From NCBI GenBank assembly GCA_046704885.1, contig JBJKRB010000207.1:11819-75818 (forward strand): DNA of 64,000 bases, written 5' to 3'. The position numbers were made by a program. Of the stretch, positions 47,501 through 53,500 are shown piece by piece. The DNA is from Thermoanaerobaculia bacterium. Lineage in GTDB: Bacteria > Acidobacteriota > Thermoanaerobaculia > Multivoradales > JBJKRB01. Each line of letters begins with the position of its first letter. Within the stretch, counting starts at the first letter, position 1.

Positions 47501-50500
47501 GCCCGCGGAAGGAGGACCGCGGACCGCGATTCCGGTCGGCGCTCGATGAGCGCTCTTTTCTAGACGTCTAGTTCGGGCTTACTTCTTTTCTTGCTTCTCT
47601 AGCCAGGAAACGAGGGTCTTGAGCTGTTCGTCATTGAGGTGGATCGTCTTCCTGTGCGTCTTGCCGTCGATCTTGACTTCGTGCTTCAGCCACTTGGTGG
47701 TCCAGTCGGCGCCCTTCTTGGCAACCACGCCGGTCAGGTCCGGCCCGGCCATCGGCGACGACGCGTTGATCATTCGGTGAATCCCGTCAACATCGAGCGA
47801 GTGGCATGTGTTGCAATGCTGCTCCATGAAAATCGCCTTGCCGTTCATCGAGGCGGCGGCGGCGTCATCGGCCGGTGAAGCGTACGCGGTCGACGCAGGG
47901 CCCGAGTAGAACAGTGCGACCCCGACCGGCGCGGCCAAGAGAAGAACCAGCATGACGGCTTGACGGATGAGCTTCATAATCATTTTTCTTCTTCCTTCCT
48001 TACAAGAACGGAACGGTGGATCCGCTCCAGTTGTTCTCTACGTCCTCCATACGATCCAAACCCTGACACCGCGGCGGAGACGTGTCCACGTCTCTTTGGG
48101 TGGCGGCGCGGCAGCGTTGGTCCCACCCCCCTGGGTGGGGGTGGTCCAGCCCGCCAGCGTCCTTGACCACCACCCCGGAAGCGGTGTTACCCTCCCGCAA
48201 ACTCGGTAACACTGCTTCCTTAGGAGGTTTAACCGGTTTGCGTGGTCAACAAGTAGACCCACAGACGCTCAAGGGAGGAAATCCATGAAGCTAAGCCGCT
48301 TCACACTTTTGGCGTTCGCCGCCGTCGCCCTGCTTCTAGTGACGGCGAACCGGGCGCCAGCGCGCCAAGCCGCGGCCAGCGGTTCGCAGCAGATCAACGC
48401 CAGTACCTGCGCTGACTGCCACGACCAGCGGGTCGCGAACTTCGCGCACAACCCGCACTCGGTGCTGGACACCAAAGGTCTGGCTTCCAAGGCGGGGGCA
48501 ACCTTCAGCTGCGCCGCCTGCCACGGCGACGTCAGCAAGCACGTCGAAGAGGGTGGAGGCACGGGTTCCATCTTTGCCTTCGGCCCCAAGGTCCCCGCCT
48601 CGGTCAAGAGCCAGCGGTGCCTGACCTGCCACGCCGACGTTCATCCCAACTTTATGCAGGGACCACACGGCAAGGCAGGAATCGCTTGCACCGACTGCCA
48701 CAGCATTCACAACTCGGATCCCAACAGCCACGTGCTCTTGAAGCGGGCCCCGGTAGGCAGCATGATCGCCGGGCGTATGGGTAACTCGGCGGTATGCGTC
48801 ACCTGTCACGGTGACATCGCCAACCGCTTCAAGCTCACCTCGCACCACCGGCTGCAAGAGGGCATCCTCGAGTGCACTTCGTGCCACAATCCACATGACG
48901 TCCAGACCCGCACGATGCTCGGCGGCTTCAAGCAGGAAGCCTGCGCCAAGTGTCACGCCGACAAGACGGGCCCCTACATCTACGAGCACCCGTCGGTGCG
49001 CGTCGAAGGGTGCACCGCTTGCCACGACCCGCATGGATCGGTCAACCGGCACCAGCTCAAGTTCCAGAAGGAAGCGGAGCTCTGCCTGAGCTGCCACACC
49101 GGCATCCCGAGCTTCCACTCGCGGTTCACGCTGGACACCAACTGCACGAACTGCCACACGGCCATCCACGGCTCGAACTTCAGCCCATTCTTCTTGCAGT
49201 AAGGGGGACCCACGATGACACGTACAGCAAAGATCGTTCTCTCCGTCGTCGTGCCGCTCCTGCTGCTCGGCGCACTACCAGTCCTGGCGCAAGATGACGG
49301 CCAGGGCGCGATGTTCACCGGCCAGTTCATGGTCGGCTACCGTTCGGTCAGCGTCGACGGTCAGAACAACAAGTACATGCAGGACTACAACCTGCAGAAG
49401 GGGCCACGCCTCTTCAACTTGAACTTCGTCCTGAAGCCCGACAAGCAGCTGCGCGGCTTCGCCGACCGGATTCAGCTCACCGTCAACAACTACGGCGGCG
49501 ACCCCAACGAGAGCATGCACCTCGGCATCGAGAAGTACGGTGCCTATAACTTCCAGTACTCGCGGACGAAGGACACCTACTTCTACAACGACATCATCCT
49601 TCCCGAGGATATTGCCAACTCCCGTATAGAGGAGGGCGGCGACTTCCGTACCTTCAACTACCAGCATGTGCGCGACGTCGGCAGACTCGACATCTCGCTC
49701 ACCAAGGCGGCGAAGCTGCACTTCAATTTCGACCGCTTCACCAAGGTCGGATCGAGCACTCTGCCGATGGACGTGGCACACGACGGCTATGAGTTTGACA
49801 AGCCGATCGACGAGTCGCAGAACCGCTACGGCGTCGGTTTGGACTATGCCTGGCAGAAGGTGACGCTCTCGCTCGACGAGAACATTCGCGACTACAAGAA
49901 CGTATTCGACATGTTCCTGCCCGGGGCTTCGCTTGGAGCCAATCCGACGAACGCCGATGCCCTCAACTACTACTTCCTCACCCAGCCGTACGACTACAAG
50001 AGCTACGATCACACCATTCGGATCGTGGCCCACCCGAGCAGCAAGCTCATCGTCAAGGCTTCGGCTCTTCTGCAGCGGCTCAACATGGACGTGAGCGCCA
50101 GCCAGAGCCAGTCGGGCATCAACTACAACGGCCAGCCTCTGACCCCAATGGAGGCGACCGGCGCGGGGAGCATCAGCCGCGACAGCGATCTCTACAATCT
50201 CGACATGACCTACATGGTCACCAACAAGGTCGGGATCATTGCCGGTCTGTGGCACAACAAGCTGACGCAGAACGGTAACTTCACATTCGCGAGCGCCCTC
50301 AACCAGGGAGCTTGGGATCTGAAGACCACCGGCGGTCGCGCCGGCGTGGAGTTCGACCTCTCCTCGCAGTTCACTCTAACCCTCGGAGGGCAGTACGAAA
50401 AGCGCGATGCGACCGAGTACCGTACCGACGACGGTGAGTACACCGACGAAGGCACGCTTTCCACCAAGAATACGGGCTTCTTCGGCACCGCGGACTGGGT

Positions 50501-53500
50501 TCCCAACACGAACTTCCGTCTGACCGCCGAGGTCGAGGACGCAACCTACACGGATCCGTACACCTTGAAGTCCCCGACCGATCGTCAGCGTCTGCGCGTG
50601 CGGGCCCGTTACAACCTCAAGAAGGGCCTCTATCTCGCCGGCTCGTACTTGTACAACAAGTTCAAGAACAACGACTCCGGCTGGGACGCGCACTATGACG
50701 AAGCGAACCTGAGGCTGGGGTATCAGAGCAAGGCGATCACCGCGACGGTGGGCTACGGCCGAATCGACATCGGCCGCAGCATCAACCACGACACGTACAT
50801 CGTCGACACCTCGACCTTCCTCTTCTACTTCCCCATTACTTACGACGCCAAGACGGACCTGTATGACGGTTCGATCCGTTGGGCGCTCAACAAGCAGTGG
50901 GCGATCGGAGGGGACCTCAGGTACTACAAGAACAGCGGCAGCTGGGGTCTGATGAGCGACGACTACCAGGGCTACGTGGAGTACACCTTCACGAACGGCT
51001 ACCTGGTCCACGCCGGCTACCGCTACATCAAGTACAACGAGGATCAGTTCAACTACAACGACTACAGCGCCAAGATCGGGGAGTTCTCGATCGGGTATCG
51101 CTGGTAGCGGCAGACTGGACAACCTCCTAGCATGAAGAACTGCGCCGGTCGCGAGACCGGCGCAGTTCTCTTTTCGGGGCCGAGCCGTCGGATTTCCAGA
51201 GCTCGCCCCCGCAACCTGCGACCGCTTCGCCTCGACTTGCCACCCAAAAGGGTAGGCCTTCCCCGTCCGATGGTTCCCGAGCCGCCCACCCGGGCGGGGA
51301 TGGCGAGGGGCGGCCACCCGAAGCAAACTCATTGTCAGTTCCGTAAAGCGGCCGGCGACGGAGCAGGGGAAAGCAAGTCGAGCCTGGGACCGTGCGGCCG
51401 CGGCGAGACCATTGAAGCCACCTTAAAAGGATCGCCTTTGAGCACTGACAAGCCTGACCCAGCAGATCCGCTACGACGCAGAGTGATCAACTGGTTTCTG
51501 GGCGGCTCGGCGTTAGCCCTGTTCGCCTCGATCGCCTATCCGATCGCTCGTTTCGTTAGCCCGCCACGCGTTCCCGAGGCGACGACCGACCAGGTCGACG
51601 CCGGCACGGTGAACGATCCCGCCTTGGTTTCCAACGGCTACAAGATCATTCGTTTCGGCACCGAGCCGGTGATCGTGATTAAGCTGTCGGACGCCGACGT
51701 TCGTGCCTTCTCCGCCACGTGCACTCACCTCGCGTGCATCGTCGAGTACCGCAAGAAGAAGCACGACATCTACTGCAACTGCCACGGTGGCGAATACAAC
51801 TTGAAGGGTAAGAACATCGCCGGACCGCCCCCGAAGCCGCTGACTCCTTTCAAGGTCGACCTGGTCGCCAAGAGCGGCGCCAGCGCGAAGTCGATCATCG
51901 TTTCGAGGGCTTGAGCGATGAAGAAACGCCTCCAAAAGATCTACCACTGGATGGACGAGAGGATCGCCCTGGGTCCGGTGCGCGAGTTCGCGATGCACAA
52001 GACGGTCCCCGTGCACCGCTACTCGGTCTTCTACTACCTGGGTGGAATGACGCTCTTCTTCTTCATCGTCCAGGTATGCACCGGGATCCTCCTGATGCTC
52101 TACTACCGGCCGGCTCCGAACGGCGCTTTCGAGTCGGTCGAGTTCCTGATGACCACCGTTCCCTTTGGCTGGCTCCTGCGCTCGATCCACTCGTGGTCGG
52201 CCAACTTGATGATCTTCTTCGCCTTTGTCCACATGGCGAGCGTCTTCTTTATGAAGGCCTATCGCCGGCCCCGCGAGCTCACTTGGATCACCGGCGCCCT
52301 CGCGCTCTTTCTCGCTCTTGCCTTCGGCTTCTCCGGTTACCTGCTTCCCTGGAATCAGCTCTCATACTTCGCCACGCGAGTGGGAACCGACATCGCGGGC
52401 GTGGTTCCGGGAGTGGGGCACTGGGTCCTTCGCTTCTTGCGGGGCGGCGACCGAATCACCGGTGGAACCCTTTCGCGCTTCTATGGATGGCACGTCGCGA
52501 TTCTGCCCGCGCTCATGACCTTTTTCCTCGGCGTCCACCTTCTCCTCGTCCAAACCCTGGGAATGAGCGTCCCTCCCTCGGTCGAAGAGGAGGCGGCGAA
52601 GCGCCGTCCGATGCGCTTCTTCCCCAACTTCGCCATGCGCGACCTCTTCGGTTGGACCGTTGCGCTCGGCGTTCTCGCTTCGCTCGCGGCATGGTTCCCG
52701 TGGGAGCTCGGCGTCAAGGCAAATCAGTTCGCGCCGGCACCGGCGGGCATCCGCCCCGAGTGGTACTTCATGTTCATGTACCAAAGCCTGAAGCTCGTGC
52801 CCGGCGGCGAGATCGCCGGCATCGAGTATGAAGTGATTCCAATCCTGGGCTTCGGCCTGGCGGCTCTACTCCTCGTCCTCGTCCCCTTCCTCGACCGGGG
52901 AGTAGTCCGCTCAGGCCGTAGCCCCCTATTTACCGCAGTCGGCGCCGTCGCGGTCGCCTATATCGTGGTGCTCACATCCTGGGGCTACCACTCCTGGACG
53001 CCGGTCTACGTCGTCCTGGGAGTCGCAGCCTTGATCGTGCTCCTCGCCTGGGCCACCCGCCGACGCGACTCCGGGGGTGAAGCGTGAGACGCTGTCTCTT
53101 GATCGTTTTCGTTCTCCTCGCGCCGGTTGCGGCGCTCGCCCAGTCATCGCCAGCCCAGAGCTCCACCAAGGTCAGCTCTTGCATCGCCTGTCATAGCAAC
53201 GCCGACATGGTCGGCAAAGAGGACGTGAAGATCGTCACGGGTGTCTCGCACGGCGTGCATGCCGCCGCTGGCCTCTCTTGTCAGGACTGCCATGGCGGCA
53301 ATCCCGACCCGTCGCTCGCCGGCGACATGGACAAGGCGATGGACCCGAAGTTCAAGGCGAATCCGTTCCGCGGCGCTCCCAAGCGCACCGCGATCCCGGC
53401 ATTCTGCGGGCGCTGCCACTCGAACGCGGACTATATGAAGAAGTTCAACCCGGAGCTGCGGGTCGACCAGGAGCAGGAATACTGGACCAGTCAACACGGC

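What the first reader, a model, noticed from the sequence alone, without database searches (positions are those of the whole stretch)
48285..51107. MtrA/MtoA-like decahaem cytochrome immediately followed by an MtrB/MtoB-like beta-barrel: a porin-cytochrome conduit
The 305-aa secreted protein has exactly ten CxxCH motifs. It is followed 12 nt later by a 630-aa secreted protein with a beta-barrel-like amphipathic pattern and a C-terminal aromatic residue. This gene pair is the defining unit of Mtr/Mto/Pio trans-outer-membrane electron conduits. No MtrC/OmcA-like surface cytochrome is adjacent, which is more Mto/Pio-like than Mtr-like. An intrinsic terminator follows at 51136-51176.
Basis: partly seen in the sequence, partly recalled or inferred. 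Interest (0 to 1): 0.8.

Follow-up and report, generated by a model that had tools for sequence, protein, structure and literature searches.

The report
MtrAB-type outer-membrane electron conduit, Acidobacteriota
This gene pair encodes a ten-haem cytochrome and the large outer-membrane barrel that most likely sheathes it, forming a known kind of molecular wire that carries electrons across the outer membrane; here it is in an uncultured Acidobacteriota bacterium, and its barrel is too diverged for standard annotation models to recognise.

Summary
ORF 48285-49202 (305 aa) has exactly ten CxxCH motifs. ORF 49215-51107 (630 aa) starts 12 nt later, carries a signal peptide and ends in ...GYRW. A 15-bp GC-rich hairpin with a U-tract follows.

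- The cytochrome just passes the NCBIfam DmsE/MtrA decahaem model (193.8 vs 192.2 bits). It aligns colinearly with MtrA of the solved Mtr complex (6R2Q_A, E 2e-27), matching all ten haem motifs and nine further His.
- Three orthologues (41-45% identical) pass Pfam MtrB_PioB.
- The decahaem-then-barrel order holds in 78 of 80 related loci from other genomes, mostly Acidobacteriota.
- No MtrC-like cytochrome is in the window. The neighbours are a monohaem cytochrome c, CbcL/MtoC-like and ImcH-like inner-membrane cytochromes, and a Rieske/cytochrome b/11-haem complex.

The direction of electron flow cannot be decided from sequence. Insertion of the cytochrome into the barrel could not be modelled. 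Verdict: a new, diverged member of a known kind.

The parts
48285..49202 (+). Periplasmic decahaem c-type cytochrome (MtrA/MtoA/PioA/DmsE family), the proposed electron wire
   Evidence: It has ten CxxCH motifs. It scores 193.8 bits on TIGR03508 (cut-off 192.2) and 183.7 bits on the GSU2203/OmcK family model. It matches 6R2Q_A (MtrA) at E 2e-27 with all ten motifs aligned. All 30 motif residues and about 12 further His are 97-100% conserved in 120 homologues, and nine of those His are shared with MtrA. The only significant fold hit is 6r2q_A, from a low-confidence model.
49215..51107 (+). Outer-membrane beta-barrel, about 26 strands, a diverged MtrB/PioB-type sheath for the decahaem
51136..51176 (+). 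Terminator-like hairpin ending the two-gene unit
   Evidence: A 15-bp perfect stem is followed by UCUUUUC, with z = -3.55 against shuffles. The consensus scan did not flag it.
47579..47983 (-). Secreted monohaem class I cytochrome c, transcribed divergently; candidate periplasmic carrier (MtoD-like role)
   Evidence: It hits Pfam Cytochrom_C and has one CNTCH motif. Homologues lie next to the pair in about 20 related loci. His110 is invariant in 21 sequences, whereas Met78 is not. It shows no similarity to any PDB chain described as MtoD.
45471..47435 (-). CbcL/MtoC/MtrH-type inner-membrane cytochrome: 11 c-haems fused to a six-helix cytochrome b domain
   Evidence: It has eleven CxxCH motifs, weak hits to Ni_hydr_CYTB and formate dehydrogenase gamma, and six transmembrane segments between residues 342 and 652. 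The family is reported next to mtrAB/mtoAB (PMC6295460).
43988..45145 (-). NapH-like membrane polyferredoxin
   Evidence: It hits Fer4_5 and the NapH/MauN subfamily model below cut-off and has five hydrophobic segments.
42412..43926 (+). ImcH-like inner-membrane cytochrome: three N-terminal helices, a NapC/NirT region, and 6 CxxCH plus 1 CxxxCH
   Evidence: The architecture matches the description of ImcH in PMC6295460. Sequence membership was not tested.
51270..51914 (+). Rieske iron-sulfur subunit
   Evidence: It hits Pfam Rieske. The start at 51270 follows the gene call on contig L001. The longer ORF from 51132 would overlap the hairpin.
51918..53087 (+). Cytochrome b (b6 plus subunit IV fusion type)
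   Evidence: It hits Cytochrome_B at 159.6 bits and Cytochrom_B_C. It scores 223 bits on cytochrome b6 and 209 bits on ExtP, both below cut-off.
53084..54817 (+). 11-haem cytochrome c with a C-terminal membrane anchor; likely the c subunit of the Rieske/cytochrome b complex
   Evidence: It has eleven CxxCH motifs, a signal peptide and a transmembrane segment at 554-572. Its start overlaps the cytochrome b stop by 4 nt.

Best explanation
The two genes encode an MtrAB/MtoAB/PioAB-type porin-cytochrome conduit. After Sec export and haem attachment, the 305-aa decahaem is threaded through the lumen of the 26-strand outer-membrane barrel. Its chain of ten bis-His haems then forms an insulated wire from the periplasm to the cell surface. 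The pair is a bicistronic unit ended by a hairpin.

What is shown: the family of the cytochrome, the MtrB-like fold of the barrel, and the conserved pairing.

What is inferred: insertion of the cytochrome into the barrel, and the partners. On the inner side, the conduit would be supplied by neighbouring inner-membrane quinol/quinone oxidoreductases. These are the ImcH-like and CbcL/MtoC-like cytochromes, and possibly the Rieske/cytochrome b/11-haem complex. The small monohaem cytochrome c is a likely periplasmic go-between.

No surface cytochrome is encoded nearby. The exposed terminal haem would therefore react directly with soluble or chelated extracellular substrates, or with cytochromes encoded elsewhere in the genome.

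Such conduits are reversible. My estimate of the physiological direction is about 50% outward (reduction of Fe(III), Mn(IV) or humic substances) and about 35% inward (Fe(II) oxidation or electron uptake).
For: Cytochrome:
- It has ten CxxCH motifs.
- It scores above the TIGR03508 cut-off.
- It aligns with MtrA of the solved Mtr complex at E 2e-27, 33% identity, with all ten motifs and nine further His matched.

Barrel:
- The model is confident and all-beta, and its DSSP string reads as 26 strands with short periplasmic turns.
- Three orthologues pass PF11854.
- The closest orthologue hits the GSU2204 family weakly. The literature describes that family as an MtrB/PioB-type barrel.

Pairing:
- The decahaem lies immediately upstream of the barrel in 78 of 80 loci from different species. 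The other two loci are cut at a contig end.
- Pairwise distances of the two proteins correlate with r = 0.83 over 77 loci.

Context:
- All four multihaem ORFs of the window lie between 42.4 and 54.8 kb.
- CbcL/MtoC/MtrH genes are known neighbours of mtrAB/mtoAB.
Against: The window's barrel itself fails PF11854 and every NCBIfam model, and neither it nor its family profile matches MtrB by sequence. No model of the complex could be made. The decahaem model alone is poor, with pLDDT 63.6. The score on TIGR03508 exceeds the cut-off by only 1.6 bits. The strand count was read from a DSSP string, not from coordinates. Evidence on direction conflicts. ImcH-like proteins have been reported only from reducers. 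The absence of MtrC, together with a monohaem cytochrome c and a CbcL/MtoC-like gene, matches mto clusters of iron oxidisers.
Confidence: 0.85

Rival explanations
1. The conduit is the same, but it works inward. Like MtoAB or PioAB, it oxidises extracellular Fe(II) or another reduced substrate at the surface. Electrons pass through the monohaem cytochrome c to the CbcL/MtoC-like protein or the Rieske/cytochrome b complex, and from there either to a terminal oxidase or, in reverse, to the quinone pool.
For: The window contains no MtrC/OmcA-like gene. A small class I monohaem cytochrome c is the most conserved neighbour in this subclade. It has an invariant extra His that could make it bis-His; that MtoD is bis-His is from my own knowledge. 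A CbcL/MtoC-type gene is adjacent, as reported in mto clusters of Gallionella and Dechloromonas. A Rieske/cytochrome b complex lies directly downstream. The barrel lacks the N-terminal CXXC motif, having no Cys at all. That this motif is specific to metal-reducing Gammaproteobacteria is from my own knowledge.
Against: An ImcH-like cytochrome is adjacent, and that family was reported only from Fe(III) reducers. The cultured member of Thermoanaerobaculia is an iron reducer. The monohaem cytochrome shows no detectable similarity to any PDB chain described as MtoD. No oxidase or carbon-fixation gene lies in the window. MtoA/PioA do not form a function-specific clade, so the architecture does not fix the direction.
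Confidence: 0.35
2. The pair is a DmsEF-type conduit that feeds an extracellular terminal reductase (for example a molybdoenzyme for DMSO or iodate), not metals.
For: The best NCBIfam model is named for DmsE. JGI annotates homologues as 'DmsE family decahaeme c-type cytochrome'.
Against: TIGR03508 is a subfamily model that covers MtrA, MtoA and DmsE alike. None of the 50 window ORFs scanned is a molybdopterin oxidoreductase or a DmsAB-like protein. None appears next to the pair in the related loci whose Pfam annotation I saw.
Confidence: 0.03
3. The adjacency is only an operon arrangement. The barrel is an ordinary diffusion porin or transporter, and the decahaem is a free periplasmic electron carrier that never enters it.
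For: The barrel fails all MtrB-specific sequence models. Insertion was not modelled. TonB-dependent receptors are also strong fold hits.
Against: The barrel has no plug domain and no TonB-receptor Pfam hit. The model aligns with MtrB over 532 residues, against 428 or fewer for 22-strand barrels. The gene order is strictly conserved and the two proteins diverge together across phyla. Orthologues pass PF11854.
Confidence: 0.05

Closest known systems
MtrAB core of the MtrCAB complex of Shewanella baltica/oneidensis (PDB 6R2Q)
   Same: The decahaem aligns colinearly with MtrA: ten motifs, nine further His, 33% identity. The barrel model's best structural match is MtrB, with about the same strand count. 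The cytochrome gene directly precedes the barrel gene.
   Different: There is no MtrC or OmcA. The barrel is only 12-13% identical to MtrB and is not detected by sequence. It contains no Cys, so it lacks the N-terminal CXXC motif. Inner-membrane partners are ImcH-like and CbcL-like proteins, not a CymA-type tetrahaem.
MtoAB with MtoC and MtoD (Gallionella capsiferriformans ES-2, Dechloromonas aromatica, Sideroxydans lithotrophicus ES-1)
   Same: The cluster has the same composition: decahaem, barrel, a monohaem class I cytochrome c, a CbcL/MtoC-type inner-membrane cytochrome, and no surface cytochrome.
   Different: The monohaem cytochrome has no detectable similarity to any PDB chain described as MtoD. 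An ImcH-like gene and a Rieske/cytochrome b/11-haem complex are additional neighbours. The host is Acidobacteriota, not Betaproteobacteria. I had no MtoA or MtoB sequences for a direct comparison.
PioAB of Rhodopseudomonas palustris TIE-1
   Same: It is also a two-gene conduit without a surface cytochrome. PioA/PioB homologues have been reported from Acidobacteria.
   Different: There is no PioC-type HiPIP here. From my own knowledge, PioA carries a long N-terminal extension; this protein is a compact 305 aa.
OmcK (GSU2203) and GSU2204 pair of Geobacter sulfurreducens
   Same: The decahaem scores 183.7 bits on the GSU2203 family model. The closest orthologue's barrel weakly hits the GSU2204 family, which is described as an MtrB/PioB-type barrel. 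Both Geobacter genes are induced by iron oxides.
   Different: Both scores are far below the family cut-offs (325 and 350 bits). GSU2204-family proteins carry a CXXCH or selenocysteine motif, whereas this barrel has no Cys.
Geobacter Pcc complexes (OmaB/OmbB/OmcB, ExtABCD)
   Same: They follow the same principle of a periplasmic multihaem cytochrome inside a porin. ImcH-like and CbcL-like inner-membrane partners are shared.
   Different: Per PMC4245776 (abstract), Pcc uses an 8-haem periplasmic cytochrome and a 12-haem outer cytochrome. Here there are ten haems, a barrel I read as 26 strands, and no outer cytochrome.

Membership tests
DmsE/MtrA/MtoA/PioA decahaem cytochromes (NCBIfam TIGR03508) | Ten CxxCH haem-binding motifs in a protein of about 300 aa | tested here: met
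   The 305-aa protein has exactly ten motifs. All are invariant in 47 and in 120 homologues.
DmsE/MtrA/MtoA/PioA decahaem cytochromes (NCBIfam TIGR03508) | Score at or above the curated model cut-off | tested here: met
   The score is 193.8 bits against a cut-off of 192.2, covering model positions 3-256 of 258. The margin is small.
DmsE/MtrA/MtoA/PioA decahaem cytochromes (NCBIfam TIGR03508) | Colinear alignment with MtrA of the solved Mtr complex, including distal His ligands for bis-His haems | tested here: met
   6r2q_A matches at E 2e-27. Ten motifs and nine further His align, and the family conserves twelve non-motif His in all.
DmsE/MtrA/MtoA/PioA decahaem cytochromes (NCBIfam TIGR03508) | Export to the periplasm | tested here: met
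   There is a single N-terminal hydrophobic segment at residues 3-21 and no other. No dedicated signal-peptide predictor was available.
MtrB/PioB outer-membrane barrels (Pfam PF11854, NCBIfam TIGR03509) | The protein itself scores above the family model cut-off | tested here: not met
   There is no PF11854 hit at E up to 1 and no NCBIfam hit at all.
MtrB/PioB outer-membrane barrels (Pfam PF11854, NCBIfam TIGR03509) | Full-length orthologues score above the family cut-off (transitive membership) | tested here: met
   P0019 scores 48.5 bits, P0010 32.8 and P0014 30.8 against a cut-off of 23, and the hits are colinear. These proteins are 41-45% identical to the window protein over 95-100% of its length. 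Seven of 26 members hit at E up to 1.
MtrB/PioB outer-membrane barrels (Pfam PF11854, NCBIfam TIGR03509) | A 26-strand antiparallel barrel with MtrB as the nearest structure | tested here: met
MtrB/PioB outer-membrane barrels (Pfam PF11854, NCBIfam TIGR03509) | The gene lies directly downstream of the decahaem gene | tested here: met
   The gap is 12 nt here. The same order holds in 78 of 80 related loci.
MtrB/PioB outer-membrane barrels (Pfam PF11854, NCBIfam TIGR03509) | The decahaem is physically inserted in the barrel lumen | not testable with these tools
MtrCAB of metal-reducing Gammaproteobacteria | An adjacent MtrC/OmcA-family surface decahaem lipoprotein | tested here: not met
   TIGR03507 reaches only 15.8 bits, and that is on the decahaem itself. 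The window has only four multihaem ORFs, and the three others have transmembrane segments that I read as inner-membrane anchors.
MtrCAB of metal-reducing Gammaproteobacteria | An N-terminal CXXC motif in MtrB (feature recalled from my own knowledge) | tested here: not met
   The barrel contains no Cys, and most family members have 0-2.
Mto cluster (mtoA, mtoB, mtoC or cymA/imoA, mtoD) | A monohaem class I cytochrome c homologous to MtoD next to the pair | tested here: inconclusive
   A conserved, secreted monohaem cytochrome c is adjacent. No chain described as MtoD appears among PDB sequence hits at E up to 1. I did not check that an MtoD entry is in the PDB copy.
Mto cluster (mtoA, mtoB, mtoC or cymA/imoA, mtoD) | An adjacent CbcL/MtoC/MtrH-type inner-membrane cytochrome (multihaem c domain plus a six-helix b-type domain) | tested here: met
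   The neighbour has eleven CxxCH motifs, six transmembrane segments and a weak Ni_hydr_CYTB hit. This matches the architecture described in PMC6295460. No direct sequence comparison with MtoC was possible.
DmsEFAB extracellular reductase system | Adjacent DmsA/DmsB molybdoenzyme genes | tested here: not met
   None of the 50 window ORFs scanned is a molybdopterin oxidoreductase.

The most novel reading that the evidence does not exclude
This pair would represent a large, essentially unannotated sister clade of MtrAB. The family profile finds about 1,100 clusters at 50% identity, spread over Acidobacteriota (Thermoanaerobaculia, Aminicenantes, Vicinamibacteria), Gemmatimonadota, Calditrichota and some Proteobacteria. 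Current MtrB HMMs miss these barrels, so iron-gene surveys would undercount them. In the window's subclade the conduit would be wired directly to a Rieske/cytochrome b complex with an 11-haem subunit. That would be a Q-cycle-coupled extracellular electron-transfer chain, or its reverse for electron uptake, which has not been described for Mtr-type systems.
Probability: 0.25. Interest if true: 0.55.

Novelty: new member of a known kind. Interest (0 to 1): 0.35.

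Why it matters
Porin-cytochrome conduits let Gram-negative bacteria respire minerals or feed on them, and they drive iron, manganese and carbon cycling in soils and sediments. Acidobacteriota are among the most abundant soil and sediment bacteria, but almost all remain uncultured.

This locus shows that one of them carries a complete candidate pathway from the quinone pool to the cell surface. The outer-membrane barrel is one that standard family models do not recognise. HMM-based surveys of extracellular electron transfer are therefore likely to miss this clade. 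The barrel alignment made here (A1) could be used to build a better model.

The finding does not change the understanding of how such conduits work.

Tried and rejected
1. Complex prediction. Translating 48285-51107 as one chain was rejected because of the stop codon. Insertion was therefore not modelled.
2. Sequence link from the barrel to MtrB. Neither the single sequence nor the 26-sequence profile found 6r2q_B at E up to 10. More distant relatives from the representative search are also only marginal to PF11854.
3. Decahaem structure. The model was poor (pLDDT 63.6), as expected without haems. Its fold search is only weak support.
4. Canonical MtrA, MtoA or PioA sequences for a phylogeny. 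The 120 best of 3,122 homologues were all close environmental relatives, so no tree against named proteins could be built.
5. MtoD similarity of the monohaem cytochrome. None was found.
6. TonB-dependent receptor reading of the barrel. Rejected: there is no plug domain, and fewer residues align than with MtrB.
7. DmsEFAB reading. Rejected: no molybdoenzyme is present.
8. Regulatory RNA, tRNA or mobile-element context. Rfam and tRNA scans of the window found nothing. GC content is even across the region, so nothing suggests a recent island.
9. A 15-nt inverted repeat in the divergent promoter region. It is not conserved in the closest relative and was not pursued.

Full report
**Observation**

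ORFs 48285-49202 (+, 305 aa) and 49215-51107 (+, 630 aa) are present as described. The first has exactly ten CxxCH motifs and no variant motifs. It is preceded by a GGGAGG ribosome-binding site, and 12 nt separate it from the second ORF. Each product has one N-terminal hydrophobic segment typical of a signal peptide. The 630-aa protein has no cysteine and ends in GYRW, and the terminal aromatic residue is kept in most relatives.

Downstream, 51136-51169 forms a perfect 15-bp GC-rich stem followed by UCUUUUC (z = -3.55 against shuffles). The simple consensus scan did not list it, so the terminator is plausible but not proven. In all six frames of the window only four ORFs carry two or more CxxCH motifs, and all four lie between 42.4 and 54.8 kb.

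**The cytochrome**

- It passes the NCBIfam DmsE-family decahaem model by a small margin: 193.8 bits against a cut-off of 192.2, over nearly the full model length. It scores almost as well on the GSU2203 (OmcK) family model, at 183.7 bits, which is below that cut-off.
- Against solved structures, the only strong sequence match is chain A of 6R2Q, the MtrA subunit of the Mtr complex. The E-value is 2e-27 and all ten motifs are in register.
- I aligned it with 120 homologues and with the MtrA fragment printed. All thirty motif residues and twelve further histidines are 97-100% conserved. Nine of those histidines coincide with histidines of MtrA, and identity to MtrA is 33%. That is enough histidine for bis-His ligation of all ten haems.
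- The AlphaFold model without haems is poor (pLDDT 63.6). Its only significant fold hit is nevertheless 6r2q_A (E 9e-6). I count this as weak support only.

**The barrel**

- By sequence it is nearly anonymous. Pfam gives only a sub-threshold generic OMP_b-brl hit. NCBIfam gives nothing, and PDB gives nothing with either the single sequence or a 26-sequence profile.
- The 5.8-billion-protein search found only 26 relatives, none named. With their alignment (A1) AlphaFold gave a confident all-beta model (pLDDT 83.6, pTM 0.74).
- The DSSP elements read as 26 antiparallel strands if 216-236 and 250-275 are each taken as one kinked strand. Turns on one side are 2-5 residues long. Loops on the other side are longer, and several of them are low-confidence.
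- A sequence link exists through orthologues. P0019 (48.5 bits), P0010 (32.8) and P0014 (30.8) exceed the PF11854 MtrB_PioB gathering score of 23, with colinear matches. Seven of the 26 members hit that family at E up to 1.
- The closest orthologue's barrel weakly hits the GSU2204 family. A 2026 review lists that family as an MtrB/PioB-type barrel (PMC13188914).
- A profile search of 1.84 billion cluster representatives found 1,107 relatives at E up to 1e-3 and 193 at E up to 1e-30. Ten of the more distant ones were at best marginal to PF11854. The family is therefore a sizeable clade at the edge of what the current MtrB model detects.

**The pair as a unit**

A scan of one genome per species found 103 relatives of the barrel, and 80 loci were fetched. 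Nearly all are metagenome-assembled genomes. They come from Acidobacteriota (Thermoanaerobaculia, Aminicenantes, Vicinamibacteria), with a few from Gemmatimonadota, Calditrichaceae, Polyangiaceae, Gammaproteobacteria (including Woeseia) and Rhodospirillaceae. The closest, at 66% identity, is an uncultured Acidobacteriota genome, so the window is very probably from that phylum.

In 78 of the 80 loci a decahaem homologue lies directly upstream of the barrel. In the other two the contig ends within about 225 bp of the barrel. Pairwise distances of the two proteins across 77 loci correlate with r = 0.83, and the barrel diverges faster. This shows co-inheritance as a module. It does not by itself prove physical contact.

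**Context**

Upstream and divergent lies a secreted monohaem class I cytochrome c (47579-47983). Beyond it are three more genes:
- a CbcL/MtoC/MtrH-type protein with eleven c-haems and six membrane helices (45471-47435);
- a NapH-like polyferredoxin (43988-45145);
- a protein with three N-terminal helices, a NapC/NirT region and 6 CxxCH plus 1 CxxxCH motifs (42412-43926). This is the architecture described for ImcH.

Downstream of the hairpin lie a Rieske protein, a cytochrome b and an 11-haem cytochrome with a C-terminal anchor. The start of the 11-haem gene overlaps the cytochrome b stop codon.

These neighbours recur in related loci:
- the monohaem cytochrome in about 20 loci;
- the CbcL-like and NapC/NirT-like genes in many Thermoanaerobaculia-type loci;
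- Rieske/cytochrome b complexes in about a dozen loci of both subclades.

The rest of the window is housekeeping: topoisomerase I, a GidA-family (GIDA) protein, a tyrosine recombinase (phage-integrase family), an AAA+ ATPase, TyrRS, citrate synthase and aconitase. No molybdoenzyme is present. No MtrC/OmcA-like protein is present.

By contrast, in 28 of the 80 loci a conserved 10-haem protein of about 715 aa follows the barrel, in the position of an MtrC analogue. These are the Aminicenantes-type loci, whose barrels are 31-36% identical to the window's. That protein has no homologue in the window.

**Mechanism**

The best-supported reading is an MtrAB/MtoAB/PioAB-type conduit, in which the decahaem is threaded through the barrel and acts as an insulated haem wire across the outer membrane.
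- Shown here: the family of the cytochrome, the MtrB-like fold and size of the barrel, and the conserved pairing.
- Inferred: insertion of the cytochrome, and the partners.

The direction of flow cannot be settled.
- Features favouring inward flow: no surface cytochrome, a small monohaem carrier and a CbcL/MtoC-type partner. This is the reported composition of mto clusters of iron oxidisers (PMC6295460).
- Features favouring outward flow: ImcH-type proteins were reported only from Fe(III) reducers (same paper), and the cultured Thermoanaerobaculum is an iron reducer (PMC9671151).
- Published trees show that MtoA/PioA do not form a function-specific clade (PMC8805035).

I put outward flow at about 50% and inward flow at about 35%.

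**Comparison and novelty**

MtrAB/PioAB homologues in Acidobacteria have already been reported from genome surveys (PMC7399161; PMC10654088; PMC9671151; PMC8805035).

Three things are new, though modest:
- this barrel lineage escapes the standard models;
- it is widespread in uncultured Acidobacteriota;
- in this subclade it sits beside ImcH-like, CbcL-like and Rieske/cytochrome b modules.

I classify it as a new member of a known kind, with interest about 0.35.

**Limits**

- No complex model could be made.
- No named MtoA/B or PioA/B sequences were available for a tree.
- The strand count comes from a secondary-structure string, not from coordinates.
- The TIGR03508 margin is only 1.6 bits.

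Noticed in passing
L035, L045, L046, L049-L051, L053-L055, L057-L060, L062-L064, L066-L068, L071-L074, L076, L077, L079, L082 (about 10-200 nt after the barrel, e.g. L054:11974-14118): In 28 of 80 related loci (mostly Aminicenantes-type) a conserved 10-haem protein of about 715 aa directly follows the barrel. The order is A-B-C, unlike Shewanella's C-A-B. Only one of the four scanned weakly hits the OmcA/MtrC model, so it may be an unrecognised surface-cytochrome family. At least one (L045) has a lipobox-like N-terminus. It has no homologue in the window.
   Followed up: partly
window 22157-27398 (- strand): There is an iron-uptake cluster about 21 kb upstream of the conduit. It holds a Fur-family regulator (26829-27398), an FTR1 permease fused to an FtrD-like domain (25562-26836), a MacB/FtsX-type permease (24345-25562), and an ABC ATPase with an iron-dependent-repressor C-terminal domain (22157-23362).
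   Followed up: no
window 42412-43926 (+), residues 133-138: Beside its six CxxCH motifs, the ImcH-like cytochrome has a CGKTCH (CxxxCH) motif at the start of its NapC/NirT-like region. This is a possible seventh haem site with unusual spacing.
   Followed up: no
window 47579-47983 (-), residues 78 and 110: In the monohaem cytochrome c, the Met of the usual 'PMAGPD' ligand position varies among 21 orthologues (M, L, A or T). A His in 'DGxxHK' (His110) is invariant. This suggests bis-His ligation, not His/Met, and hence a lower potential than a typical class I cytochrome.
   Followed up: partly
window 48177-48219: A 15-nt inverted repeat (GGAAGCGGTGTTACC / GGTAACACTGCTTCC, 13 nt apart) lies in the divergent promoter region between the monohaem cytochrome gene and the decahaem gene. 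It could be an operator or an RNA hairpin. It is not found in the equivalent region of the closest relative (L083).
   Followed up: partly
window 51132-51914 (+): The longest Rieske ORF (260 aa, starting at 51132) would begin inside the terminator-like hairpin and carries a non-homologous, Arg/Pro-rich N-terminus. The gene call on an identical public contig starts at the equivalent of 51270 (214 aa). That ORF still has no predicted membrane helix by simple hydropathy, so the true start remains uncertain.
   Followed up: partly
window 38442-42293: Next to the cytochrome cluster are a B12-binding radical SAM protein (40440-42293, +) and a 601-aa polytopic membrane protein with no Pfam match (38442-40247, -). 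Any link to the cytochrome cluster is unknown.
   Followed up: no
L012:3585-6608 and L021:3151-6171: Two Thermoanaerobaculia-type loci encode CbcL-like proteins of about 1,006 aa with 21 CxxCH motifs next to the pair. This is close to the upper end of the haem counts reported for that family.
   Followed up: no
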